Shown one piece after another: positions 10,692-46,564 of a DNA stretch of 64,000 nucleotides (its first letter is position 1; each line of letters starts with the position of its first letter). The notes below the pieces were generated by a model. That model was not told the origin of the DNA. It was given only the letters and a program-made list of their open reading frames with translations, and searched no databases. The position numbers and the translations under genes were made by a program. The stretch is from a virus: the IMG/VR virus record IMGVR_UViG_3300047476_001426, positions 32,001 to 96,000 of that record; one strand, written 5' to 3'.

Positions 10692-12449
10692 TTATCTCAA
10701 GGTGTCAAGACTGAATGTAGTCAAACCACCAACGTTAATCACACCAAAGTAACGGTTGTTAACCATTTTCTTAGCGTATCTTGTCATGATACCTTTGATT
10801 GGTGTAAAGTTGAATGGGTTGTACATTGTAGGTGTCAATTGTAATGGAACGTATGGTGCGTAAATGTAACCAGCGTCCAACAATGATTTACCTTTGTGAC
10901 CGATGATGATTTTACCTGATGGTAAATAAGGGTCACGGTAAACTTGGTAACGACCTGCTAATGAACCGATTTTCTCGATACCCATGTTGTATTGGTCTTG
11001 CTCAGGGTTTGCGTTTGATACGTGGAAGTATTCCAAGTCATCAAATACTGCAGATACCTCAGAAGATACAACAATCCAGTTAGCTCCACCTCTTAAGGTA
11101 GTTTTGTGGATTTGAGCTGAGATTTGGTTAATCTTGGTAACCAAAGTTTGGTTCCAGTCTTTTTGAGTGTAACCAGCGAATGATGAACCACCATTACCGT
11201 ATCTCCACTCATTGTAGTCCCATTTAGCTGACCAAGCGGCACCTTTACGGATGTCACGAAGGATTTCACGGTCGATTTCTGCTGCGATTTGCTCAGACAA
11301 TAAAGCTGTCAATTCTGCTTCAGCATCGATGTTGTGGAATGCACTTACGTCTTGAGCCAATTCAGGAGACCAGCTAGCTCTTAACTTTCTTTCAGTTACA
11401 GAAACTGTTACTGATTGAAGGTCGAAAGATACTTCACCGATTTCTTCTTCGAATTCAAGTGAACTGTATTCTCTCCAAGAAACTTTAAGGTCAGTTGCTG
11501 CCAATGTAGAACCTGCAACTACGTAGTCTGTGTAACCAGTTGTTACACCGTTATATTTTTGTAAGTCAACTTGAAGGTAGATAACACCTTCAGCGTCACA
11601 AATGTTGTCATATTTACCTGTTCTACCAGTACCTTTGCTTCCGTATTCAACAATACCTTTACCGTATTTTTGAGTTACAACGTTGAAAGGGATGTTAGCG
11701 GCTACAGTTGCACCTAAGTGACTATATAGACCACTATCAATTCCTGATTGAGTAAATACTGTTAATGAAGCCAAGAATTCTTCAGTGTCCATAACTTGAC
11801 CGTTAGGACCTGCAAGTTTAGCCGCACCATCGTAAGTTGTGAAACCTGAAAGTTTTAAGATTACACTTGAAACTGAAGTACCTGAAGCGATTGCTGATTG
11901 TGTACTAGCAACACCGTTACTGAATGTTACGAATTCAATAGAAGTACCTGTGATAGTTGAATAGGTACCTTTTGAATAATCGAACAAACCTGAATCTACT
12001 GAATCACTTGACTCATAGAAACGGTCGTACAAGTTATTACCTGTGTAACCAGCAGCTGGGTCAGTCTCAGCACTTGGGAATCCGTAAGGTTGACGGTGAG
12101 CGTTGTCGCTTCTGTCTTGGATTTTAGGTACGAAGTAGAACAATTTACCGATAGGTAAGTTCATTGCTTGTACTGAAACGATGTCATTCGCTAATAATTT
12201 AGAGAATACACGACGGATGATAGGGAATACTACAGTTTCGAAAGAACCTGAAGCATCGGCTACAGCCGCTTCGTTGATTAGGTATGAAGCTTGGTTTTCA
12301 TACAATTGTGCGATGTTGTCTTTTTGGTGACCGTTAAGACCCTCAAGGAATCCTAAGTCGTCCCATTTTTTGATGGTATCTTCTTTGATAACACGAAGGT
12401 GCTTAAGACCGATGTTACCAACCATACCTGATTCTAATAATGCTCCCAT
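10692..12449 (-). CDS. gp23: Major capsid protein, T4 gp23-like
   Basis: LANDIVSVQAMNLPIGKLFY, RKLRASWSPELAQD, YAPYVPL and GIMTRYA motifs of the gp23 family. Confidence 0.95.
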   Translation of the reverse strand: MGALLESGMVGNIGLKHLRVIKEDTIKKWDDLGFLEGLNGHQKDNIAQLYENQASYLINEAAVADASGSFETVVFPIIRRVFSKLLANDIVSVQAMNLPIGKLFYFVPKIQDRSDNAHRQPYGFPSAETDPAAGYTGNNLYDRFYESSDSVDSGLFDYSKGTYSTITGTSIEFVTFSNGVASTQSAIASGTSVSSVILKLSGFTTYDGAAKLAGPNGQVMDTEEFLASLTVFTQSGIDSGLYSHLGATVAANIPFNVVTQKYGKGIVEYGSKGTGRTGKYDNICDAEGVIYLQVDLQKYNGVTTGYTDYVVAGSTLAATDLKVSWREYSSLEFEEEIGEVSFDLQSVTVSVTERKLRASWSPELAQDVSAFHNIDAEAELTALLSEQIAAEIDREILRDIRKGAAWSAKWDYNEWRYGNGGSSFAGYTQKDWNQTLVTKINQISAQIHKTTLRGGANWIVVSSEVSAVFDDLEYFHVSNANPEQDQYNMGIEKIGSLAGRYQVYRDPYLPSGKIIIGHKGKSLLDAGYIYAPYVPLQLTPTMYNPFNFTPIKGIMTRYAKKMVNNRYFGVINVGGLTTFSLDTLR

Positions 12450-37786: not shown

Positions 37787-37860
37787 GGTACCGTAGCTCA
37801 GTTGGTAGAGCACCAGACTGAAAATCTGGGTTGTCACTGGTTCAAATCCAGTCGGTACCA
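37787..37860 (+). tRNA. tRNA-Phe(GAA)
   Basis: Full cloverleaf; CCAGA-CTGAAAA-TCTGG. Confidence 0.93.
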
Positions 37861-37962
37861 CATAGTGTTGGCTTCAAGTCCCATTAGGGAAGTACACTTA
37901 AATAAAACATACACGGGGAAAGTGTTGACTGCAGAAACAGCGAGTACCAACGAAGGGGTAAT

Positions 37963-38036
37963 GTCTTCGTAGCTCAGTTGGTTAGAGCACCTCACTTTTA
38001 ATGAGGGAGTCACGCGTTCGAGTCGCGTCGGGGACA
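37963..38036 (+). tRNA. tRNA-Lys(TTT)
   Basis: Full cloverleaf; CCTCA-CTTTTAA-TGAGG. Confidence 0.93.
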
Positions 38037-38178
38037 CAAAGGTTGATTGGGGAATGATTATGTCTATAGTTCGAGAGTGGATACTGACTGACATAATCGG
38101 AGTTTGGAGGTATTCACCGTAGTAATGCCAATCGTAAAAGGAGATGTCCACTGAACCATCTTCTCCTTTCCTTGACTT

Positions 38179-38252
38179 AGTTCCTTAGCTCAGTTGGTTA
38201 GAGCATCTGCCTTACATGCAGAGGGTCGTTGGTTCGAATCCGACAGGGACTA
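38179..38252 (+). tRNA. tRNA-Val(TAC)
   Basis: Full cloverleaf; TCTGC-CTTACAT-GCAGA. Confidence 0.93.
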
Positions 38253-38318
38253 CAATAAACTAAAAATTGCATCAATAAACAAGGTTAGTTTATCGTGGCA
38301 AAAACAAGTTTAATAAAC

Positions 38319-38389
38319 ACGGGTGTGGTGAAAGGGTATCATACCGGTCTCCAAAACCGTTGTTGGGAGTTCGAATCTCTCCACCCGTG
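38319..38389 (+). tRNA. tRNA-Trp(CCA)
   Basis: ACGGGTG/CACCCGT acceptor; CGGT-CTCCAAA-ACCG. Confidence 0.88.
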
Positions 38390-38410
38390 CAAACTTTAAA
38401 AATAAAAACA

Positions 38411-38842
38411 ATGAACAATCAAATAGGAATCGATGCCGCAAAAATAAAATTTGAGGCTGAGAAAATGAAACTAAAAGAAGAAAGGGAACGAAGGATTAAA
38501 GAGTTTTGGGAAAACGGTATACCCAAATTAAATAATCCTGAAGACGTACCAACACTTCCAAGGGTGGATGAAAAAGAATGGAAAGAATACTATGTACCAA
38601 GATTGATTGATGCTGGTGCAATCCCTAAAAAAGATTTAATCCATGGTCAGATTTATATCGGTGAACATAGAAATACAACCATAGCAAGATGGAATCAGGA
38701 AACAAACAAATTCGACCACATGAGATATAAGTTTGGTTGGGCGAAAGATGATTGTAACCATTTTGAAGATGATGATGGATTCGCATTGTTTGTCCCAATT
38801 AGATTAGGAACACAAGAAGAATGGGATGAAAGAATTAAATAA
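38411..38842 (+). CDS. Hypothetical protein in the tRNA array
   Basis: ATG at 38411 after an A-rich leader; 143 aa. Confidence 0.65.
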   Translation: MNNQIGIDAAKIKFEAEKMKLKEERERRIKEFWENGIPKLNNPEDVPTLPRVDEKEWKEYYVPRLIDAGAIPKKDLIHGQIYIGEHRNTTIARWNQETNKFDHMRYKFGWAKDDCNHFEDDDGFALFVPIRLGTQEEWDERIK

Positions 38843-38847
38843 ATGAT

Positions 38848-38921
38848 GCTCTCGTAGTTCAATGGATTAGAACATTTCACTACGGATGAAAGGGTTGGGA
38901 GTTCGAGTCTCTCCGAGAGTA
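38848..38921 (+). tRNA. tRNA-Arg(ACG)
   Basis: TTTCA-CTACGGA-TGAAA; full cloverleaf. Confidence 0.9.
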
Positions 38922-38926
38922 CAATA

Positions 38927-38998
38927 GGGTCAGTTTGGTCATGGAGGCCGGTTAGTCTGCAAAACTAACGGAGTTGGTTCGATTCCAACATTGACCTC
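38927..38998 (+). tRNA. tRNA-Cys(GCA)
   Basis: GTTAGT-CTGCAAA-ACTAAC; T arm GTTGG-TTCGATT-CCAAC; weak D arm. Confidence 0.8.
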
Positions 38999-39053
38999 AA
39001 TATAAGGTCTGAACCTAATAGTGGGGGATTATTAGGTGTGGACCTTATAATAT

Positions 39054-39128
39054 GGTAGATATAGTTCAGTTGGTTAGAACGTCTGATTGTGGTTCAGAAG
39101 GTCGTCGGTTCGAATCCGATTATTTACC
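39054..39128 (+). tRNA. tRNA-His(GTG)
   Basis: TCTGA-TTGTGGT-TCAGA; encoded G-1:C73. Confidence 0.92.
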
Positions 39129-39135
39129 CAAACAT

Positions 39136-39212
39136 TGGAATATAGCTCAATTGGTTAGAGCATTCGTCTGATACGCGAAAGGTTATAGGTTCGATTCCTA
39201 TTATTCCAACCA
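39136..39212 (+). tRNA. tRNA-Ile(GAT)
   Basis: TTCGT-CTGATAC-GCGAA; encoded CCA. Confidence 0.93.
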
Positions 39213-39217
39213 AACAT

Positions 39218-39291
39218 TGCGGGGTGGACTGGAGAGGTTCCAGCTCAGTCTCATAAGCTGAATGACGTGGGTTCGATTCCCACCCCCGCAA
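39218..39291 (+). tRNA. tRNA-Met(CAT), fMet-like body
   Basis: TGCGGGG/CCCCGCA acceptor; TCAGT-CTCATAA-GCTGA (lacks the three G-C pairs of classical initiators). Confidence 0.8.
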
Positions 39292-39460
39292 CTTTTTCAT
39301 TGAACATTTTGAAATATGGAATTTCATGTTTATATTTTAATTGTTCGTTTGTTCTTTGAAATAAAAATATGGATATAACTAGGGTCGAGCCAGATTTTGC
39401 CACGGTTATGTCAAGGGTTGGAAGGACCAGAGCTGGCCGTGACTACTCCAACCCACTATT

Positions 39461-39534
39461 GCCTCCTTAGCTCAGTTGGCCAGAGCGCCTCACTTGTAAT
39501 GAGGATGTCGTTGGTTCGAATCCGACAGGAGGCT
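39461..39534 (+). tRNA. tRNA-Thr(TGT)
   Basis: CCTCA-CTTGTAA-TGAGG. Confidence 0.93.
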
Positions 39535-39631
39535 CTGCAGGGTTTTCGGTGTAAAGGGTGTCAAAACCCACCTGAGCAAAACCTAACATATGTCCACTAT
39601 GTGTTAGGGTAATGTGGATAAAACCGAAATT

Positions 39632-39703
39632 GGTCTCATAGTTAAACGGCTATAATGCAGCCCTGTCACGGCTGAGTTCGGGGTTCGATTCCCCGTGGGA
39701 CCG
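39632..39703 (+). tRNA. tRNA-Asp(GTC)
   Basis: CAGCC-CTGTCAC-GGCTG. Confidence 0.93.
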
Positions 39704-39994
39704 CAATGAGTAAGAGATACTCAGGAAGATTGGCTACATTCTGTAAAAAAGTAGTGGTGGTAAAAAAATCCTCGACCTTAATGAGGTATCGATTTGGATA
39801 AAACGGTAGCAAGACTCTGCACCGCCGACGTATAGAGTTGACAGGTTTTTATGTGGTAAGACACTAATGAAAAAGACCCAATGAAGGAGGACGCTTTTAA
39901 GCAATATGTTCAGAGAGCGTTGGGGGATATGGTTCTCGAAACAGTGAGAGAAACCCGTTAAAATCTACTTATTGTAATCTCAGATAAGGAAATT

Positions 39995-40080
39995 GGAGAG
40001 TTGGCAGAGCTGGTTGAACGCGGCGGTCTTGAAAACCGTTTTACTGAAAGGTAACGGGGGTTCGAATCCCTCACTCTCCG
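39995..40080 (+). tRNA. tRNA-Ser(TGA)
   Basis: GCGGT-CTTGAAA-ACCGT with a long variable arm. Confidence 0.92.
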
Positions 40081-40088
40081 CAAATTAT

Positions 40089-40163
40089 GGCCCTTTCGTC
40101 TATCGGTTAGGACAGGTCCCTTTCACGGACCAGAGACGGGTTCGATTCCCGTAGGGGCTACCA
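40089..40163 (+). tRNA. tRNA-Glu(TTC)
   Basis: GGTCC-CTTTCAC-GGACC; encoded CCA. Confidence 0.92.
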
Positions 40164-40179
40164 AACAAAAAAAACCAAT

Positions 40180-40422
40180 ATGTTAGAGAAAATTTTAGAA
40201 CAATATGAGAGTGAGGAAATCTTAATTGCCGATGGATTTGATAATGCGGTTATAGGTATTGATGAATCCACAATGAGATTAATTTATTCCGTTGAGAAGT
40301 GTATAAACATCCTAATGGAACAAGGAATGGATATGACAGAAGCGGTTGAATACTTTGATTTCAACGTCTCAGGTTCATATGTTGGTGAGAAGACTCCAAT
40401 ATGGTGTGATGATTTATTTTAA
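40180..40422 (+). CDS. Small acidic hypothetical phage protein
   Basis: 80 aa; ADGFDNAVIG...YSVEKC..EAVEYFDFN..GSYVGE.TP pattern common in phages. Confidence 0.7.
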   Translation: MLEKILEQYESEEILIADGFDNAVIGIDESTMRLIYSVEKCINILMEQGMDMTEAVEYFDFNVSGSYVGEKTPIWCDDLF

Positions 40423-40462
40423 AAAAAAATTTAAAATTATTTGTAAATAAAAAAACTTTTCG

Positions 40463-40470
40463 TATCTTTG
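40463..40470 (+). promoter_or_regulatory. Bacteroidota sigma70 -7 element driving tRNA cluster 2
   Basis: TATCTTTG with upstream TTTG (-33 element). Confidence 0.8.
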
Positions 40471-40487
40471 TGATAGTTATTTAAGAA

Positions 40488-40592
40488 ATGATGAACTTGG
40501 TATACATACAACAACCGTTGAACAATCCACTTAGTGGTAATGGGAGAGGTATATATTTATGTGACCCAAGTTCGGAGTTAGTCAAATTATAA
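40488..40592 (+). CDS. Leader peptide 2 (MMNLVYIQQPLNNPLSGNGRGIYLCDPSSELVKL)
   Basis: 34-codon ORF between promoter and terminator; carries antiterminator strand AAGTTCGG. Confidence 0.75.
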   Translation: MMNLVYIQQPLNNPLSGNGRGIYLCDPSSELVKL

Positions 40593-40616
40593 GGATAAGA
40601 TAACCTACTATAGATG

Positions 40617-40649
40617 ACCCGAACTTAAATAAAAAAGTTCGGGTTTTTT
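40617..40649 (+). terminator. Attenuator terminator 2
   Basis: ACCCGAACTT-loop-AAGTTCGGGT followed by TTTTT. Confidence 0.85.
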
Positions 40650-40681
40650 GTTTTTAGAGTTTTTTGTTTTTATATTTGAAG

Positions 40682-40704
40682 TGTTCTTTGACATATTGGT
40701 TTAA
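40682..40704 (+). promoter_or_regulatory. boxA-like antitermination element, copy 2
   Basis: Exact 23-nt repeat of 37761-37783. Confidence 0.6.
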
Positions 40705-40710
40705 GTAGTT

Positions 40711-40795
40711 GCCGAGGTGATGGAATGGTAGACATGAGGGACTTAAAATCCCTTGGACAGTAATGTTCGTGTGGGTTCGACTCCCATCCTCGGTA
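40711..40795 (+). tRNA. tRNA-Leu(TAA)
   Basis: AGGGA-CTTAAAA-TCCCT, long variable arm. Confidence 0.92.
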
Positions 40796-40800
40796 CAAAA

Positions 40801-40999
40801 GAAACTTCCTTACAGAAGGTGATAATGCTTCACTGAAAGGACTACTGACTTCCAAGTGGGTCGCAACCACAATCGGAAGGTACGACACGGCTCAGTAGAC
40901 TCTGTAACGGACCCTGCTCTATGGTGCACACATAACAGGTGATGGGGAACAAACCATCGGTAAAATCTAAACCCACGGTGAGCGTGGAAGGAATGTTTC
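40801..40999 (+). ncRNA. Unclassified multibranch structured RNA
   Basis: End-to-end stem GAAAC.TTCCTT/AAGGAA.GTTTC; internal TTACAGA/TCTGTAA, CTACTGA/TCAGTAG and several hairpins. Confidence 0.55.
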
Positions 41000-41009
41000 T
41001 TTTTTTAAT

Positions 41010-41083
41010 GTCTCCGTAGCTCAGCTGGATAGAGCAACAGCCTTCTAAGCTGTGGGTCATTGGTTCGAATCCAATCGGGGATA
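41010..41083 (+). tRNA. tRNA-Arg(TCT)
   Basis: ACAGC-CTTCTAA-GCTGT. Confidence 0.93.
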
Positions 41084-41085
41084 CT

Positions 41086-41225
41086 AAGATAGTGGTCACT
41101 CTCACAATGAAAGTCGACAAAGTAGTTGTGAGGTTCATAGTGTTCAGCACCCTCGGCCAGTGCACTGATAAAACTCAGAAGAAGCCGTTAAGATTGGAGC
41201 GAGACGGGTACTCCATCACTATCTT
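41086..41225 (+). ncRNA. Unclassified structured RNA
   Basis: Closing stem AAGATAGTG/CACTATCTT; internal CTCACAA/TTGTGAG and TGGAG/CTCCA hairpins. Confidence 0.5.
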
Positions 41226-41230
41226 TTTTT

Positions 41231-41305
41231 CGGGATGTAGCGTAGTCCGGTTATCGCGCATGGTTTGGGACCATGAGGTCGCAGGTTCGAATCCTGCTAT
41301 CCCGA
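41231..41305 (+). tRNA. tRNA-Pro(TGG)
   Basis: CATGG-TTTGGGA-CCATG. Confidence 0.93.
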
Positions 41306-41355
41306 CAAAGTCCGAGAGTAATTAACTCGGTACCTGAGAGGTTCGAAACTCTCGA

Positions 41356-41449
41356 TTGATTATGGTGTAATGGCGCACAGCAGAACGGAGTACGGGCATC
41401 GGCCTCGAAAGGGGACGCAGGATTAAGGTTCGAATCCTTATTAATCAGC
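41356..41449 (+). ncRNA. tRNA-like RNA with anticodon arm replaced
   Basis: Acceptor TTGATTA/TAATCAG, D arm GTGT/GCAC, T arm TAAGG-TTCGAAT-CCTTA; about 45-nt non-canonical middle. Confidence 0.6.
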
Positions 41450-41651
41450 AAGCCGTCTTTTTTCATACTCGCACCGATGAGGGGGACTGTTGAGACGTTA
41501 AAGTAACAGTGTAAAGCAATCGGGGGTTTATCCAAGTTACCCACAAACTGGGGTCGTTTTCCTTACCGAAGGAGTTTCCCGACCAATAAACTGAAACTCA
41601 AACGATAGAAAAAAGTAGGGACACATGGGGAAGCTTTAACCCGTCCCGAAA

Positions 41652-41750
41652 TAGTCAGGTGAGTTGGTACTCACGGAGGGTCGTTAAATGGAAAGATACC
41701 ACATCGACGAGGTGGTAAATGCCGAACAGGTTCGAGTCCTGTCCTGACTA
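41652..41750 (+). ncRNA. tRNA-like RNA, TAGTCAGG class, copy 1
   Basis: TAGTCAGG/CCTGACTA stem, GTGAG/CTCAC arm, ACAGG-TTCGAGT-CCTGT; no 7-nt anticodon loop. Confidence 0.6.
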
Positions 41751-41823
41751 CTAAGTAGAGAGAACCGTGAGTTTGCGGATGGAAACAACCATAAAACGAG
41801 CATACGTCATACTCTACTTAACA

Positions 41824-41918
41824 TAGTCAGGTTTGGTACAAGGTCGGTTCGAGTCCGATGGAAGGTCATGGATGTCGGGTAGCTCCCTGTAGAGAGGTTC
41901 GATTCCTCTCCTGACTAC
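41824..41918 (+). ncRNA. tRNA-like RNA, TAGTCAGG class, copy 2 (two T arms)
   Basis: Same terminal stem; TCGG-TTCGAGT-CCGA and AGAGG-TTCGATT-CCTCT. Confidence 0.6.
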
Positions 41919-41995
41919 GATACGGTGTTGACCTGTCCGCGACCGAAATGTATACAAAACAGTGGAGGGTGACAAATAGGGAGAGACCTGTACAT

Positions 41996-42136
41996 GATTA
42001 AGTGGCGAAATTGGTTTACGCGCTGGTCAGTACCCAAAAGAGTGTTGAATGGGGAAAACTGGTGGACATACTACAGACACGAGTAGTAGGAGATTATGTC
42101 TTTAAATCCGTACAGGTTCGAATCCTGTCTTAATCT
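41996..42136 (+). ncRNA. tRNA-like RNA with a long insertion in place of the anticodon arm
   Basis: GATTAAG/CTTAATC acceptor, Leu-type D arm GCGAAATTGGTTTACGC, ACAGG-TTCGAAT-CCTGT. Confidence 0.6.
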
Positions 42137-42263
42137 CGAATGTGGTTCGATTCCACTCGTTAACTGAGGTTTTGGAAAGTAGTCCAATGGAGGTACACAC
42201 TCCACTTAGAAATAAGGTAGAATGATGGAGAACAGTTTGGAGGTGTGGGAAGACACACAAAAT

Positions 42264-42335
42264 TCCTCGATAGCTCAGCGGTAGAGCAAACGGCTGTTAA
42301 CCGTTAGGTCCCAAGTTCGAATCTTGGTCGGGGAG
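42264..42335 (+). tRNA. tRNA-Asn(GTT)
   Basis: AACGG-CTGTTAA-CCGTT. Confidence 0.93.
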
Positions 42336-42411
42336 CAAAAAAATCGTTGATGGAAACATCGAAGGTGTACAATACTAGTAACACCGTAGGTTTGGCGATG
42401 TCCTACAATAG

Positions 42412-42492
42412 GCCTTGGTGGTGGAATGGTAGACACGCTAGTCTTAGGAACTAGTGGCGAAAGTCGTGTCGGTTCGAGTCCGACCTGAGGTA
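42412..42492 (+). tRNA. tRNA-Leu(TAG)
   Basis: CTAGT-CTTAGGA-ACTAG. Confidence 0.92.
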
Positions 42493-42497
42493 CAAAT

Positions 42498-42601
42498 TCA
42501 TTCTTAGTGTTATGAGGTAAAACACTTTGACTCTCACATCGCCTGGTTAGTACTGACCCGAATGTGAGACGAGTAAGTTGGTTCGAATCCAACAGAATGG
42601 A
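42498..42601 (+). ncRNA. tRNA-like RNA with an extended hairpin replacing the anticodon arm
   Basis: TCATTCT/AGAATGG acceptor, GTGTT/AACAC D arm, TCTCACAT/ATGTGAGA hairpin, GTTGG-TTCGAAT-CCAAC. Confidence 0.65.
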
Positions 42602-42663
42602 CAACCCGTCGAAAGCTCATGTTGGTCCGAGTGAGATGGAAACGCGGATATCGGACCCGTTAT

Positions 42664-42745
42664 TGGAAGGTGGGTGAGTGGTTAAAACCGGCAGACTGTA
42701 AATCTGCTCCCATTGGGTACGGGGGTTCGAATCCCTCCCTTCCAA
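42664..42745 (+). tRNA. tRNA-Tyr(GTA)
   Basis: GCAGA-CTGTAAA-TCTGC, variable arm. Confidence 0.92.
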
Positions 42746-42758
42746 CAAAAATATCATT

Positions 42759-43310
42759 ATGAAAAAAAATAAAATAATTTCAGAGATGTTATCAAACATC
42801 ACACCTGAAATGAAAGAAAAATGGAAACAAGAGAGAATTGAACGTAAAAACAAATTAACACCCGAATATCAACTCGGATATTATGTTGGTTTGGAAATTG
42901 TTCACAGATATCTACCAACTCTTTCTACTGATATGATACAATCTCGCACCGTGATTGAAGTTTCTGAAGAAGATACTTTAGAAAATGAAAGATTGGATAC
43001 CGAATGGTATACAACAACAAAACACGGTGGAGAATGGAATGGTGTTGATGAAAACGGCAATAAAGAGAAATGGGATTTATACCATCAACACAATAAAATG
43101 TTGGGAAGGAAATACCTACCAAATCCATTGGAGTGTTACATGAGTTTGTTAAATGTTCAAAACATGGATGAATTTAAAAAAGGTTTAAGGTTCGCATTGT
43201 GGGATTGTGATATGTGTTCATACAATATTGAACCTGAAAACATAAAAATTTACGATGATGAACAAGCCATGTTTACTATTATCGAATTTCAATTAGATTC
43301 AGTGGTGTAG
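42759..43310 (+). CDS. Hypothetical protein in the tRNA array
   Basis: 183-aa ORF; its TAG stop overlaps the 5' end of tRNA-Ile(TAT). Confidence 0.65.
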   Translation: MKKNKIISEMLSNITPEMKEKWKQERIERKNKLTPEYQLGYYVGLEIVHRYLPTLSTDMIQSRTVIEVSEEDTLENERLDTEWYTTTKHGGEWNGVDENGNKEKWDLYHQHNKMLGRKYLPNPLECYMSLLNVQNMDEFKKGLRFALWDCDMCSYNIEPENIKIYDDEQAMFTIIEFQLDSVV

Positions 43311-43377
43311 CTCAATTGGTGAGAGCAGGACTCTTATACAGTCAAGGTTATGGGTTCAAATCCCGTCATCACTACCA
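43301..43377 (+). tRNA. tRNA-Ile(TAT)
   Basis: GACT-CTTATAC-AGTC anticodon arm; encoded CCA. Confidence 0.85.
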
Positions 43378-43428
43378 ATTATCGGTTAAATAACCGATAA
43401 AATAAATTATCGTCGATTTGAACGATAT

Positions 43429-43502
43429 GGTCCCTTAGCTCAGTTGGTTAGAGCAACTGACTCATAATCAGTAGGCCCACGGTTCAAGCCCGTGAGGGAC
43501 CA
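43429..43502 (+). tRNA. tRNA-Ile2 or Met (CAT)
   Basis: ACTGA-CTCATAA-TCAGT; body resembles bacterial lysidine-type Ile2. Confidence 0.85.
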
Positions 43503-43527
43503 CAGAGATATTTATATATAAAAAACT

Positions 43528-43980
43528 ATGGGAATAGAATTAAAAAAGAAAAAACAACTTATCGAAAGATTAAATAAAAGGTTGTTATCGGAAGCCGAAA
43601 TGGAATGTCCAAAACCAACTCAAGATTTGGAATTAAACACCAAAAACAGAGATAAATCAATAAAGGCAGATTATATTAAATATGGTCCACTTAATATTGA
43701 TGAACCGGGAGATTATTGGGAAATGGTTGCATCCGATTGGGATACAACTGTTGAGGCAGCAAAAAAATCACTATGTGGTAATTGTGTTGCTTTTGATATT
43801 TCACCAAGAATGGATGAATGTATGCCGGGTTCTGTTTCTGATGACAGCGGTAGATTAGGTTACTGTTGGATGCATCATTTTAAATGTCATTCAGCAAGAA
43901 CATGTAAAACATGGGCTAAAGGTGGACCTATTACCGAAGACACGGTTTCATACGAATGGCAAGAAAAAAATAAAGAATAA
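43528..43980 (+). CDS. Cys-rich hypothetical phage protein
   Basis: 150 aa; CGNCVAF, GYCWMHHFKCHSARTC; preceded by TATTTATA. Confidence 0.7.
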   Translation: MGIELKKKKQLIERLNKRLLSEAEMECPKPTQDLELNTKNRDKSIKADYIKYGPLNIDEPGDYWEMVASDWDTTVEAAKKSLCGNCVAFDISPRMDECMPGSVSDDSGRLGYCWMHHFKCHSARTCKTWAKGGPITEDTVSYEWQEKNKE

Positions 43981-44043
43981 ATGTAGTCGTACCCTTAACT
44001 CCAAAACTCACAACTGAGTCTCTGTTATGGGAAGGCTACTCCC

Positions 44044-44116
44044 GCGGAAATAGCTCAGTTGGTAGAGCATCACCTTGCCAAGGTGAGGGTCGCGAGTTCG
44101 AGTCTCGTTTTCTGCT
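44044..44116 (+). tRNA. tRNA-Gly(GCC)
   Basis: TCACC-TTGCCAA-GGTGA. Confidence 0.93.
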
Positions 44117-44185
44117 CTAAGTAAACCTTAAAAAGGGCCCTTCCGTTGGTACGACAACGGCTTGTTGAGCCCGGGTTTACTTTTT

Positions 44186-44257
44186 GCGAATATCGTATAA
44201 TGGTCATTACTTCAGACTTCCAATCTGAAGATGTCAGTTCGATTCTGACTATTCGCT
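44186..44257 (+). tRNA. tRNA-Gly(TCC)
   Basis: TCAGA-CTTCCAA-TCTGA. Confidence 0.92.
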
Positions 44258-44310
44258 CAATCATTATAGTGGTCACTAAATCGGGTTAGTGAAAATCTAT
44301 TTGATATTAT

Positions 44311-44381
44311 TGTCCTGTGGTGTAACGGCAGCACATCTGGTTTTGGTCCAGAGAATTGAGGTTCGAATCCTTGCGGGACAA
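44311..44381 (+). tRNA. tRNA-Gln(TTG)
   Basis: TCTGG-TTTTGGT-CCAGA. Confidence 0.92.
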
Positions 44382-44439
44382 CAAAATTTTTAAATTATGA
44401 AAAAAGAAAGAGACTTCTATTAGGTAACACTAATAGAAT

Positions 44440-44709
44440 ATGTCAAAACACAGAAACAGAGCTAAGCTCAAAAACGCAGAATGTGGTAGGGATTACCACC
44501 TAATTTCTTTAAACGAATGGTATCCCCTTTATTGGGATGAGGGGTACAACTTCTATCCACGATGGAGAAGAGGTTACAAAAATCCCAACAAGACAATTCC
44601 AATCTTTAAAGTACGTGAGTACAGAACTTGGAAGTACAACAGAAAAAACCAATATGTTGAGAGGAAAGTTACCCAAGTTGGTGAAGGGGACGGTTTGCTA
44701 AACCGTTAG
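44440..44709 (+). CDS. Small basic hypothetical protein (3' end overlaps tRNA-Ser)
   Basis: Arg/Lys/Trp-rich ORF ending in YRTWKYNRKNQY-type motif common in phages. Confidence 0.5.
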   Translation: MSKHRNRAKLKNAECGRDYHLISLNEWYPLYWDEGYNFYPRWRRGYKNPNKTIPIFKVREYRTWKYNRKNQYVERKVTQVGEGDGLLNR

Positions 44710-44750
44710 GTCGAGTAATCGGCGCGAGGGTTCGAGCCCCTCACTTTCCG
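44663..44750 (+). tRNA. tRNA-Ser(GCT)
   Basis: ACGGT-TTGCTAA-ACCGT, long variable arm. Confidence 0.92.
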
Positions 44751-44781
44751 CAAAATACTTATAAGTAGAATAATATGTAAT

Positions 44782-45243
44782 ATGACAAAATTTAGAACAT
44801 TGTACGGAACACCCATAACTGACGTTATTGGTTACATCAAAGATTATTTGGTTGATAAAACTGATGTTGAGATATTAATTGGTTCGGATTCACAATCATT
44901 TAGTAATTCAAAAACAGTTTACGGGGTGGTTATTGCTCTTTACACAACAGGTAAAGGTGCACACGTACTATGTACTAAAGATATCACACCATTTGAAAAA
45001 GACACATCAAGTAGATTAATGACCGAAGTTTGGAAAGCTGTTGAAGTTGCCGAACATTTGAGAAATAATGGTTTACCAAAAGCCACATGGATTGATATAG
45101 ATTTAAATCCCGACCCAAGATATAAATCAAACAAAGTTTTGAGACAAGCAGTTGGTTTGGTTGAAGGTATGGGATACAAGGTAAGATACAAACACGCAGG
45201 TGCTATGGTGACTTACAGTGCAAACCATTTGGTAAGAATTTAA
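44782..45243 (+). CDS. YkuK-like RNase H-fold protein
   Basis: ILIGSDSQ, RLMTEV, WIDIDLN..SN..GLVEGMGY pattern. Confidence 0.7.
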   Translation: MTKFRTLYGTPITDVIGYIKDYLVDKTDVEILIGSDSQSFSNSKTVYGVVIALYTTGKGAHVLCTKDITPFEKDTSSRLMTEVWKAVEVAEHLRNNGLPKATWIDIDLNPDPRYKSNKVLRQAVGLVEGMGYKVRYKHAGAMVTYSANHLVRI

Positions 45244-45310
45244 AAAAAAGATAAGAGGGCTTGTTTTTTTAAAAAAGTCCTTTTATCTTTGTAATGTAAT
45301 ATTTATAGTC

Positions 45311-45652
45311 ATGAGAAAAAACTAGATTAACAGACTTGTAGTCGTAACCCGTAAAGACTTAAAACCCGGGTACCAAATTGCACAATCGGGACATGCAATC
45401 TCTCAGTTCATTTTAGAACACCCCGAATTGTCGAAACGATGGAACAACAGTTATCTGATTTCATTATCCATCGATTCAGAAGAAAAATTACAACAATTAC
45501 TTTTTAGGTTAGAAGATTCAGGAATACCTGTATCTCATTTCATTGAACCCGATATCGGGAATCAATTAACATCTATTTGCTTTCTCGAAACCGAGGAAAC
45601 AAAAAGATTCACATCATCATTGCCTTTATCCTTAAAGGAATATAATAAATAA
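45311..45652 (+). CDS. Pth2-like peptidyl-tRNA hydrolase with in-frame TAG at codon 5
   Basis: MRKN*INRLVVVTRKDLKPGYQIAQSGHA...EPDIGNQLTSI; VVVTRKDL..G..IAQ..HA is the Pth2 N-terminal catalytic motif. Confidence 0.75.
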
Positions 45653-45672: not shown

Positions 45673-45927
45673 ATGAAGTAGATTAACAAAAAATGTGAAA
45701 TTATTTTTCACTTCAACAAGAAACACTTGGAAAATCCGACGATTCCAATGTGGGTTGTGAAATGTCGGGGCGACACTTATTATGTTCATCATGTTGATGT
45801 CTCACCGGGTGTGGGATTCTCAACAAAAGAAACTCCCGATAACCCTCATACCAAAGGGAGTATAAAATTCAAAGCAAATTTGGAAATTGAGGAAAACAAT
45901 AACATAATAACAGCTAAAATTTTTTAA
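45673..45927 (+). CDS. Hypothetical protein with in-frame TAG at codon 3
   Basis: MK*INKKCEIIFHFNKKHLENPTIPMWVVK...; A-rich leader before the ATG; frame continuous with ORF 45727-45927. Confidence 0.65.
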
Positions 45928-45929
45928 AA

Positions 45930-46268
45930 ATGAAAAATACAAAACACAACCCAACAATGATGATTAAATCATCTTTCTCGAACAAGATTCATAATCTTTT
46001 AGGTATCAAACACAAACCATATTCAAAAGAGTGGTTTGAAGGTATGAAACAAAGAAGAGAATTGACTAATGAAGAAAAGTCTAAACTTTTTGATGAAATT
46101 ATGAAGGTGTATGTTGAAACATCCGACGAATTGGTAAACTATCGTAAAGATAGGAGATTAAAAAAATGGGTCAACAAAAAACGTTTAGAAAGAGGATATG
46201 TCCCAAAGAAAAAAACAAAAAAAGAAGATTATGAAAAAAATCTTCAAAATGATTTGGAGATATCTTAA
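45930..46268 (+). CDS. Basic hypothetical protein
   Basis: 112-aa ORF coupled to the previous gene. Confidence 0.55.
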   Translation: MKNTKHNPTMMIKSSFSNKIHNLLGIKHKPYSKEWFEGMKQRRELTNEEKSKLFDEIMKVYVETSDELVNYRKDRRLKKWVNKKRLERGYVPKKKTKKEDYEKNLQNDLEIS

Positions 46269-46385: not shown

Positions 46386-46457
46386 GGTCTCGTGGTGTAG
46401 CGGTAACATTACGGTCTCTAAAACCGATAGTCACGGGTTCAAATCCCGTCGGGACCA
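46386..46457 (+). tRNA. Amber suppressor tRNA (anticodon CTA)
   Basis: GGTCTCG/CGGGACC acceptor; CGGT-CTCTAAA-ACCG anticodon arm (CTA at 46418-46420); ACGGG-TTCAAAT-CCCGT. Confidence 0.88.
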
Positions 46458-46564
46458 CAACAAAAAAAAATATTTTTAAAAAAAATTACAAAAATACTTG
46501 TTTTTTAAAAAAAGTTTTGTATCTTTGTACCACAACAATAAATAATACATTTAATACGACATTT

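What the first reader, a model, noticed from the sequence alone, without database searches (positions are those of the whole stretch)
45673..45927. The adjacent gene carries the same TAG-ATT-AAC-A amber cassette
Seen: ATG AAG TAG ATT AAC AAA..., open for about 80 more codons. The 10-nt context TAGATTAACA is identical to that in the Pth2-like gene, at a different codon position (3 vs 5) and in an unrelated protein. Recurrence argues for a selected recoding signal rather than decay. All other long genes read cleanly in code 11, so this would be local, gene-specific recoding, unlike the genome-wide TAG reassignment known in some crAss-like and Lak phages.
Basis: partly seen in the sequence, partly recalled or inferred. 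Interest (0 to 1): 0.82.

Follow-up and report, generated by a model that had tools for sequence, protein, structure and literature searches.

The report
Amber-gated genes beside a suppressor tRNA
Two neighbouring phage genes begin with a stop codon (TAG) that most likely only the phage's own suppressor tRNA, encoded 459 bases away, can read through, and this three-part arrangement recurs in many unrelated phages, so it looks like a built-in switch rather than damage.

Summary
ATG AAG TAG ATT AAC opens an 84-codon frame at 45673. The Pth2-like gene at 45311 has TAG as codon 5 in the same 10-mer.

- **Small protein:** homologues in 80 viral contigs give 71 distinct proteins. 46 keep ATG, 1-9 codons, then TAG. 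TAG-less homologues carry a sense codon at that position.
- **Ribosome-binding sites:** where present, they precede the ATG.
- **Suppressor tRNA:** a tRNA-CTA lies within 2.2 kb in 67 of 80 loci.
- **Pth2-like gene:** it keeps an early TAG in 39 loci, usually sits directly upstream of the small gene, and is fused to it in some phages.
- **Controls:** the same scan with TAA or TGA finds no such families.
- **Recoding:** the 136-kb record and the relatives' flanks are not generally TAG-recoded.

Best reading: translation of a Pth2-like hydrolase and its small all-beta partner is gated by the phage's own suppressor tRNA.

Not shown: what the pair does, and which amino acid is inserted. Only TAG plus a following A (mostly ATT) is conserved, not the whole 10-mer.

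I found no published description. I rate it a new variant of suppressor-tRNA recoding, testable in cultured phages.

The parts
45673..45927 (+). Small all-beta protein gene (84 codons, family motif FHFNK...STKETPDNPHTKGS). ATG at 45673, in-frame TAG as codon 3, stop TAA at 45925.
   Evidence: There are 71 distinct homologues, 46 with an early TAG. AF2 pLDDT is 92 and residues 2-15 form the first strand. No Pfam, PHROG or PDB match.
45679..45681 (+). In-frame amber codon (codon 3) of the small protein gene, followed by ATT.
   Evidence: TAG-less homologues have AAC, AAT or AAA at this position. Two independent freshwater DNA runs and a diverged contig keep it unchanged.
45311..45652 (+). Pth2-like peptidyl-tRNA hydrolase gene (113 codons). 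ATG at 45311, in-frame TAG as codon 5, stop TAA at 45650.
   Evidence: Pfam PTH2 scores 25.8 bits against a cut-off of 23. The family profile hits solved Pth2 2zv3 at E 7.7e-11 over its full length. An early TAG is kept in 39 loci, 32 distinct.
45323..45325 (+). In-frame amber codon (codon 5) of the Pth2-like gene, followed by ATT AAC.
46386..46458 (+). tRNA with anticodon CTA (amber suppressor). 73 nt, short variable arm, G1-C72, A73.
   Evidence: ARAGORN. Rfam tRNA model 63.7 bits. Sequence features.
45284..45291 (+). TAtcTTTG, a Bacteroidetes-type -7 promoter box about 20 nt before the ATG of the Pth2-like gene (inferred).
   Evidence: Read and conserved in close relatives. The same motif lies at about 46521 before the 706-codon ORF. 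Assigning it as a promoter rests on my knowledge of the Bacteroidetes consensus TAnnTTTG.
45930..46268 (+). 112-codon lysine-rich ORF of unknown family between the small gene and the tRNA-CTA (context only).
   Evidence: no family match.
37787..44751 (+). Array of 25 further tRNA genes on the same strand (context only).

Best explanation
Both genes start at the upstream ATG. The UAG at codon 3 or 5 is decoded as an amino acid by the phage's own amber-suppressor tRNA (anticodon CUA, window 46386-46458). Without that charged tRNA, the ribosome would make only a 2- or 4-residue peptide. With it, the full Pth2-like hydrolase and its small all-beta partner are made. Their synthesis is therefore gated by, and scales with, suppressor activity. 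This is a natural feed-forward gate.

Shown here: the TAG lies inside the ORF, it is conserved, it is always TAG, it is followed by a purine, and it is linked to a tRNA-CTA gene. The two proteins are encoded as an operon and sometimes as a fusion.

Inferred: that the tRNA does the decoding, that early placement gives a harmless OFF product, and that termination on very short nascent chains is weak.

More speculative (about 0.3): the pair handles by-products of suppression, meaning peptidyl-tRNA from drop-off or from ribosomes that ran through stop codons, or it tunes the suppressor itself. The amino acid inserted is unknown.
For: 1. A bona fide tRNA-CTA lies 459 bp downstream on the same strand.
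2. In 46 distinct DNA contexts of the small gene, the TAG lies 1-9 codons after an ATG, most often 2. Shine-Dalgarno motifs (AAGGA/AGGAG) sit 7-9 nt before that ATG in the lineages that use them.
3. TAG-less homologues read ATG CTT AAC/AAT/AAA ATT..., a sense codon at the TAG position.
4. A tRNA-CTA is within 2.2 kb (median 406 bp), same strand, in 67 of 80 loci. In the 1.5-kb flanks CTA appears in 50 of 54 tRNA-bearing layouts; the next most frequent anticodons are GCA at 21 and then 4 or fewer.
5. An unbiased scan for ATG, 1-9 codons, a stop, then at least 60 open codons gave two large families for TAG: 57 loci (46 distinct) and 39 loci (32 distinct). For TAA and TGA no cluster exceeded 5.
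6. The Pth2-like gene sits 1-43 nt upstream of the small gene. Where the small gene lacks TAG, the Pth2-like gene has it. 72 of 80 loci carry at least one early TAG.
7. Natural fusions exist, P0015 and P0010. P0015's contig again reads ATG AAA AGG TAG ATT AAC A.
8. The +4 base is A in 41, G in 4, C in 1 and T in 0 of 46 contexts. This is the classical favourable context for tRNA-mediated amber suppression in E. coli (my knowledge of Bossi 1983 and Miller & Albertini 1983).
9. The same set-up occurs in cultured phages: Tenacibaculum phage pT24 and Rhizobium phage RHph_I1_18, where annotation truncates or misses the gene.
10. Substitutions in a diverged contig fall on third codon positions from the TAG onwards, 11 of 13, and the TAG itself is unchanged.
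11. Invariant residues lie upstream of the first canonical start after the TAG.
Against: There is no direct evidence of translation: no proteomics or ribosome profiling. Seven TAG-type loci show no tRNA-CTA within 10 kb. The statistical link between having a TAG and having the tRNA is weak, because TAG-less modules also keep the tRNA. The codon after the TAG is an AUH codon, a weak alternative start, in 36 of 46 contexts. That leaves room for a rival. The record is only 41% complete, so more TAG-bearing genes may exist. Which synthetase charges the tRNA is unknown.
Confidence: 0.8

Rival explanations
1. ATG-X-TAG is a tiny leader ORF, and the real protein starts at the ATT right after it. This would be either plain AUU initiation or termination followed by reinitiation.
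For: The codon after TAG is ATT, ATA or ATC in 36 of 46 contexts, and these are listed as rare starts in table 11. The PTH2 profile begins only about 3 residues after the TAG. In mycobacteriophages a GTG follows the TAG at good Shine-Dalgarno spacing.
Against: Ten of 46 contexts have non-start codons after the TAG: AAC, AAT, GTA, GTT, GTC, CCC. Pth2-like genes also show ACA, AAC and an Arg codon there. Shine-Dalgarno motifs are spaced for the upstream ATG. TAG-less homologues keep the same ATG and the same Ile two codons later as an internal residue. A leader ORF in a 33% GC genome should mostly end in TAA, yet every case uses TAG, and the TAA and TGA scans find nothing. This model gives no reason for the tRNA-CTA linkage.
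Confidence: 0.08
2. This is context-driven read-through by host near-cognate tRNAs with no dedicated suppressor. It is the first reader's idea of a local 10-nt recoding cassette.
For: TAG ATT, and often TAG ATT AAC, recurs in both families, including the distant fusion contig L174. Seven TAG-type loci lack a detected tRNA-CTA within 10 kb.
Against: Only TAG plus A/ATT is conserved. The following codons vary: GAA, ACA, AAC, AAA. There is no significant RNA structure, with z-scores of -0.89 and +0.90. A matching tRNA-CTA lies within 2.2 kb in 67 of 80 loci. From my own knowledge, unaided read-through in bacteria is usually a few per cent or less.
Confidence: 0.06
3. The TAGs are just two instances of general TAG reassignment (code 15) in a phage whose recoded, late genes lie in the unseen 59% of the genome. 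Their early position has no regulatory meaning.
For: The record is 41% complete. TAG is rare as a stop, 7 against 35 TGA among ORFs of 100 codons or more. The Pth2-like gene also occurs in TAG-recoded Lak phages.
Against: The position-specific conservation at codons 2-10 in two families across many lineages is not expected from neutral recoding. Making TAG a sense codon raises long-ORF coverage by 6.4% in 70 relatives' 20-kb flanks, against 5.8% for the TGA control. No protein family spans a mid-gene TAG in the 136-kb record.
Confidence: 0.05
4. The genes are broken (decay or sequencing error), or UAG encodes pyrrolysine.
For: ARAGORN labels any CTA tRNA 'tRNA-Pyl'.
Against: The TAG is kept in 46 and 32 distinct sequences and in independent metagenomes, and the ORFs downstream are under purifying selection. 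The tRNA fits the standard cloverleaf model. No PylS was found in the record.
Confidence: 0.01

Closest known systems
TAG-reassigned ('code 15') phages with suppressor tRNAs: crAss-like, Lak and others (Borges et al., bioRxiv 10.1101/2021.08.26.457843; PMC9523058)
   Same: A phage-encoded tRNA with a CUA anticodon decodes in-frame TAG in phage genes while the host uses the standard code. Recoding has been proposed to act as a regulator of expression.
   Different: Here only two genes in 136 kb carry TAG. The codon is fixed at positions 2-10 of the ORF. The genes are translation-related and sit next to the tRNA, and the surrounding genomes read as standard code. In code-15 phages, TAGs are scattered through many late and lysis genes.
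'Code change module' of Jade phages: suppressor tRNA, tRNA synthetase and release factor (same preprint)
   Same: A cluster of translation genes is physically linked to a suppressor tRNA.
   Different: That module is written in standard code and holds an aaRS and an RF. This one holds a Pth2-like hydrolase and an unknown small protein that themselves carry the recoded codon.
PTH2-family hydrolases in jumbo phages and phage tRNA arrays (PMC7824862; PMC5966550)
   Same: The gene at 45311 belongs to this family and lies in a tRNA array. Those papers proposed a role in recycling peptidyl-tRNA or rescuing ribosomes.
   Different: Neither paper, as far as I searched them, mentions an in-frame amber codon, a link to tRNA-CTA, or the partner protein.
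Synthetic suppressor-tRNA gates (title of PMC7969014: 'A suppressor tRNA-mediated feedforward loop eliminates leaky gene expression in bacteria')
   Same: The logic is the same: an amber codon in the target gene makes its translation depend on a separately expressed suppressor tRNA.
   Different: That system is engineered. This one appears to be a natural, widely conserved counterpart.
Lambda bar minigenes (ATG-ATA-stop) and peptidyl-tRNA drop-off (from my own knowledge)
   Same: In the OFF state ATG-AAG-TAG is formally a two-codon minigene. Minigenes of this kind cause peptidyl-tRNA drop-off that Pth must clear, and a Pth-type enzyme is one of the gated genes.
   Different: bar minigenes are not followed in frame by a conserved protein and do not depend on a suppressor tRNA. 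The link is an analogy and was not tested.

Membership tests
Suppressor-tRNA-mediated TAG decoding in phages | The phage encodes a tRNA with anticodon CUA. | tested here: met
   ARAGORN places it at 46386-46458. Rfam tRNA model 63.7 bits.
Suppressor-tRNA-mediated TAG decoding in phages | An in-frame TAG lies inside a conserved ORF where homologues have a sense codon. | tested here: met
   AAC, AAT or AAA stand at the TAG position in TAG-less homologues. Invariant residues lie between the TAG and the next canonical start.
Suppressor-tRNA-mediated TAG decoding in phages | An amino acid is inserted at UAG (protein-level evidence). | not testable with these tools
   No proteomic data are at hand.
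Genome-wide code 15 (TAG reassigned across many genes) | Many genes carry in-frame TAGs, and coding density rises when TAG is read as sense. | tested here: not met
   Only two clear cases in 136 kb. Relatives' flanks gain 6.4% against 5.8% for the TGA control. The record is 41% complete, so this holds only for what was seen.
PTH2 peptidyl-tRNA hydrolase (gene at 45311) | Significant full-length similarity to the family. | tested here: met
   Pfam PF01981 scores 25.8 bits against a cut-off of 23. The profile of 23 homologues hits 2zv3 at E 7.7e-11, positions 4-104 of 112.
PTH2 peptidyl-tRNA hydrolase (gene at 45311) | Catalytic residues are present and hydrolase activity is shown. | not tested
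   Invariant R9, D11, Q20, H23, E74, D76 and T82 are listed, but I did not map them onto the known active site.
Pyrrolysine decoding | PylS/PylBCD genes and the atypical tRNA-Pyl architecture. | tested here: not met
   No PylS_Cterm match in the record. The tRNA matches the standard tRNA model well. The record is incomplete.
cis-element programmed stop-codon read-through | A conserved downstream sequence or structure stimulates read-through. | tested here: not met
   Fold z-scores are -0.89 and +0.90. Beyond ATT the downstream codons vary.
Non-AUG (AUU) initiation, as in infC | A conserved AUU start with the ribosome-binding site spaced for it. | tested here: not met
   The Shine-Dalgarno motif is spaced for the upstream ATG. 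Ten of 46 contexts have non-start codons after the TAG.

The most novel reading that the evidence does not exclude
Amber-suppressor tRNAs in phages travel with a dedicated accessory pair, a Pth2-like hydrolase plus a small all-beta protein. The pair's own early UAG acts as a sensor, so the pair is made in proportion to suppressor activity. Its job would be to clear or limit the by-products of stop-codon read-through (dropped-off or non-stop peptidyl-tRNA), or to set the level of suppression. That would be a previously unrecognised part of how phages deploy, and perhaps evolve towards, stop-codon reassignment.
Probability: 0.35. Interest if true: 0.88.

Novelty: new variant of a known kind. Interest (0 to 1): 0.8.

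Why it matters
Suppressor tRNAs turn up in many phages that otherwise use the standard code, and their purpose there has been unclear. This module names their first conserved clients: two genes that apparently cannot be translated without the tRNA.

- **Regulation.** It would be a natural example of translational gating by a suppressor tRNA, a design that synthetic biologists built independently.
- **Evolution of recoding.** It may be an intermediate stage on the way to code reassignment.
- **Annotation.** A whole protein family is systematically missed or truncated. In 1.84 billion representative proteins there are only 153 hits, many starting at the internal Met26.
- **Testability.** Cultured phages with the module include Tenacibaculum phage pT24 and Rhizobium phage RHph_I1_18. 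Bxz1- and Myrna-type mycobacteriophages may also serve.

Tried and rejected
- **Fold searches of the AF2 model (pLDDT 92).** PDB by Foldseek gave no hit better than E 0.45. VIA-align wide gave a best Z of 3.4. BFVD returned only uncharacterised phage proteins. No function can be inferred from these.
- **ESM Atlas.** It holds only the truncated protein and gave no informative neighbours.
- **Pfam and PHROGs on the small protein and its long forms.** Nothing found.
- **hhalign of the long forms against the Pth2-like profile.** The N-terminal extensions (P0033, Atu_ph07) and the C-terminal extension (P0005) show no similarity. Only P0015 and P0010 are true fusions.
- **Complex prediction of the Pth2-like protein with the small protein.** No verdict, so it counts neither way.
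- **Backup stops after TAG-terminated genes.** 4 of 7 lie within 3 codons against a background of 0.31, p = 0.14. Not significant, so not used.
- **My first codon-usage score.** It did not separate coding from non-coding frames, and I dropped it.
- **Identity of the suppressor.** 60 distinct CTA tRNAs were compared. A73 occurs in 51 and G1-C72 in 50. The closest body type is Trp in 14 of 60. This is not enough to name the amino acid.
- **RNA-library contigs.** They cover parts of the locus but cannot show transcription.
- **blastn against cultured phages.** No DNA-level relatives.
- **Earlier findings of this scan.** None for this genome.
- **Literature.** Five searches found no description of early amber codons linked to suppressor tRNAs. 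The library is incomplete, so prior work cannot be excluded.

Full report
**1. The observation**

Window 45673-45927 reads ATG AAG TAG ATT AAC AAA and then stays open for 81 codons to TAA. The Pth2-like gene 362 bases upstream reads ATG AGA AAA AAC TAG ATT AAC AGA. TAGATTAACA occurs exactly twice in the window, at these two places.

As a word it is not enriched:
- The 9-mer occurs 3 times against 1.06 expected.
- With one mismatch there are 11 matches against 10.7 expected.
- The third exact copy in the 136-kb record is not at a gene start.

So the 10-mer alone proves little. The position does the work. After each TAG the first ATG, GTG or TTG comes 15 and 34 codons later. That is beyond residues that are invariant in each family.

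**2.

ARAGORN finds 26 tRNA genes on the + strand. The last, at 46386-46458, has anticodon CTA and lies 459 bases after the small gene. It scores 63.7 bits on the Rfam tRNA model. It has a short variable arm, a G1-C72 pair and A73. It is an amber suppressor by anticodon.

**3. The small protein's relatives**

tblastn against cultured phages found a homologue in Rhizobium phage RHph_I1_18:
- It is unannotated.
- It reads AGAGGAAAGG..ATG AGT GAG TTC ATG TAG AAC GAA TCG TGC.
- It ends 12 bases before a tRNA annotated tRNA-Pyl(cta).

A scan of IMG/VR gave 80 loci at 53-99% identity, holding 71 distinct proteins. Of these, 46 have ATG, 1-9 codons (most often 2), then TAG, then the conserved body.
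- The codons before the TAG vary widely.
- Many lineages have AAGGA or AGGAG 7-9 bases before the ATG.
- The 25 TAG-less homologues mostly read GGAAAGGAGG..ATG CTT AAC/AAT/AAA ATT. That is a sense codon where the others have TAG, and the same Ile follows it.

So the TAG lies inside the reading frame.

**4. Linkage to the tRNA**

With 10-kb flanks, 67 of 80 loci hold a tRNA-CTA. It is always on the same strand and always within 2.2 kb, median 406 bases, on either side of the gene. In the 1.5-kb flanks CTA appears in 50 of 54 tRNA-bearing layouts. Cys-GCA appears in 21, and every other anticodon in 4 or fewer. The tRNAs themselves are diverse, with 60 distinct sequences. The link therefore cannot come from one recent mobile element.

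**5. The Pth2-like gene**

I scanned the 80 loci and the record without prior assumptions for ATG, 1-9 codons, a stop, then at least 60 open codons, and clustered the products by homology from their N-termini.
- For TAG there were two large families: the small protein (57 loci, 46 distinct) and the Pth2-like protein (39 loci, 32 distinct).
- For TAA and TGA no cluster exceeded 5, and those came from near-identical contigs.

The Pth2-like gene lies 1-43 bases upstream of the small gene in about 38 loci. In 17 loci the small gene has no TAG of its own. There the Pth2-like gene has one, and the small gene follows within 1-20 bases, often behind a strong Shine-Dalgarno motif. In all, 72 of 80 loci carry at least one early TAG in the pair.

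Two representatives in the 1.84-billion-protein library are in-frame fusions of the two domains (P0015 and P0010). The contig of P0015 again begins ATG AAA AGG TAG ATT AAC A. Operon order, coupling and fusion show that the two proteins work together.

The Pth2-like family is a true PTH2 relative. Pfam scores it above the cut-off, and its profile hits the solved Pth2 structure 2zv3 at E 7.7e-11 over its full length.

**6. Beyond metagenomes**

- **Tenacibaculum phage pT24** (cultured, Bacteroidetes host). Its PTH2 gene reads ATG AAA TAG ATA. The annotated CDS starts at an internal Met. A tRNA-CTA, annotated tRNA-Sup, lies 2.5 kb upstream.
- **Three huge-phage assemblies.** All show the early TAG in the PTH2 gene, and one has a tRNA-CTA within 1.5 kb.
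- **Mycobacteriophages Myrna and IkeLoa.** The PTH2 gene lies 130-250 bases from a tRNA-CTA, and its annotated GTG start is directly preceded by GTG TAG or ATG TAG.
- **185,579 prokaryote genomes.** Only six loci hold the small protein, all on MAG contigs. Four have the early TAG and four have the tRNA.

**7. Not general recoding**

In the 136-kb record only these two genes show an early TAG with no alternative start and no overlapping ORF.
- Joining ORFs across TAG is no commoner than across TGA.
- No PHROG family spans a mid-gene TAG.
- In 70 relatives' 20-kb flanks, reading TAG as sense raises long-ORF coverage by 6.4%, against 5.8% for TGA.
- TAG is a rare terminator, 7 against 35 TGA among ORFs of 100 codons or more.

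Caveat: CheckV rates the record 41% complete, so the unseen part could differ.

**8. Rivals**

- **Start at the ATT after the TAG.**
  - For: ATT, ATA or ATC follow the TAG in 36 of 46 contexts.
  - Against: 10 contexts have non-start codons.
  - Against: Shine-Dalgarno spacing points to the ATG.
  - Against: TAG-less homologues keep the ATG and the internal Ile.
  - Against: a leader ORF would not always end in TAG in a genome where three quarters of stops are TAA.
- **cis-only read-through.** It lacks a conserved element beyond TAG-A/ATT and lacks any RNA structure.
- **Decay.** Conservation rules it out, and so does population data. Two independent freshwater runs keep both TAGs. A diverged contig keeps the TAG, and 11 of its 13 differences in the gene fall on third codon positions, starting directly after the TAG.
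- **Pyrrolysine.** The tRNA has a standard cloverleaf and there is no PylS.

**9. Context**

The base after the TAG is A in 41, G in 4, C in 1 and never T. From my own knowledge of classical E. coli work (Bossi 1983; Miller and Albertini 1983), a 3' purine, especially A, favours suppression by amber-suppressor tRNAs. The Ile is also kept in TAG-less homologues, so part of that signal is at the protein level.

**10. The proteins**

The small protein gives a confident all-beta model (pLDDT 92). Residues 2-15 form the first strand, so a product started downstream would lack a core strand. Invariant positions include N15, P25, W27, K30, G33, Y37, H40, T51-K52-E53-T54, T60 and G62. No solved or named fold matches it.

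**11. Mechanism**

- **Shown:** the anatomy and its conservation.
- **Inferred:** the suppressor tRNA decodes the UAG, so both proteins appear only when the tRNA is made and charged, and in proportion to it. Early placement makes the OFF product a harmless di- or tetrapeptide. From my own knowledge of minigene work, termination on very short nascent chains is inefficient, which would help the tRNA compete.
- **Speculative:** the purpose. A peptidyl-tRNA hydrolase tied to a suppressor suggests clearing peptidyl-tRNA produced by drop-off or by ribosomes that ran through host stop codons. Feedback on the suppressor itself is an alternative.

The inserted amino acid is unknown. A73 (51 of 60) and G1-C72 (50 of 60) differ from the E. 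coli Gln identity set, and the closest tRNA bodies are Trp-like in 14 of 60.

**12. Novelty**

Already described:
- Phage suppressor tRNAs and TAG reassignment.
- PTH2 genes in jumbo phages and tRNA arrays.

Not found in five full-text searches:
- The conserved early amber codon.
- Its link to tRNA-CTA.
- The partner family.

I rate this a new variant of a known kind.

Noticed in passing
L005, L008, L016, L021-L037, L174, L185, L189 and others; in the window tRNA-Cys is at 38928-38998: A tRNA-Cys(GCA) gene recurs right beside the tRNA-CTA or the small gene, in 21 of 54 tRNA-bearing layouts. No other anticodon appears in more than 4. In several lineages the order is tRNA-CTA, small gene, tRNA-Cys. 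In this window the Cys tRNA is 7 kb away. I have no explanation.
   Followed up: partly
L178 (Mycobacterium phage Myrna, 1470-1490) and L179 (IkeLoa, 2470-2485): The annotated GTG start of the PTH2 gene is directly preceded by GTG TAG (Myrna) or ATG TAG (IkeLoa). A TANNNT hexamer lies 6-7 nt before that first NTG, so the mRNA might be leaderless with UAG as codon 2. A tRNA-CTA lies 130-250 bp downstream, and the Myrna record annotates it as tRNA-Ser.
   Followed up: partly
L180/L184 (Tenacibaculum phage pT24, record 194083-195036): CDS BPT24_235 is annotated from an internal Met. Read from ATG AAA TAG it is a 317-residue PTH2 domain plus a C-terminal region with a weak HD-domain match (E 0.061, below cut-off).
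   Followed up: partly
L001 583-831 (Rhizobium phage RHph_I1_18): The small-protein homologue is not annotated in the GenBank record, presumably because of its TAG at codon 6.
   Followed up: yes
L183 1734-1806 (Prevotella phage Lak-A2): A tRNA with anticodon TTA (an ochre suppressor by anticodon) lies about 700 bp upstream of the PTH2-like match in this TAG-recoded megaphage.
   Followed up: no
whole record G000 (136,485 bases): It is an IMG/VR virus record that CheckV rates 41% complete. Relatives' contigs reach 343-362 kb, so this is probably a fragment of a jumbo phage. Near-identical sequence occurs in freshwater and other aquatic metagenomes from seven studies, not counting the runs flagged as the window's possible source. 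Promoter boxes of the type TAnnTTTG suggest a Bacteroidetes host.
   Followed up: partly
genome 117055-117621, minus strand (outside the window; L092): An endonuclease-like ORF (phrog_681) ends in TAG and is followed by 76 open codons. With an active suppressor it would be extended by read-through.
   Followed up: partly
L065, L045, L058, L048, P0005, P0007 (long forms); L002, L003, P0033 (N-terminal extensions): Some homologues of the small protein carry a C-terminal extension of about 100 residues. Others, including Agrobacterium phage Atu_ph07 and Sinorhizobium phage Phosso, carry an N-terminal extension of about 100 residues and no TAG, and sit next to a phosphatase gene. Neither extension matches a known family.
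   Followed up: partly
L148 (IMGVR_UViG_3300012036_000005): This is the only relative's flank where reading TAG as sense clearly raises long-ORF coverage more than the TGA control (0.168 against 0.024). This phage may be recoded more widely.
   Followed up: no
L154-type contigs, minus strand near 10694: A third, small cluster of early-TAG ORFs (259 codons, 8 loci, 3 distinct). An ATG 11 codons after the TAG makes an ordinary start likely.
   Followed up: no
window 44782-45243: An RNaseH-like (PF04308) gene lies directly upstream of the Pth2-like gene, wedged between tRNA-Ser and the amber-gated pair. It is conserved in close relatives.
   Followed up: no
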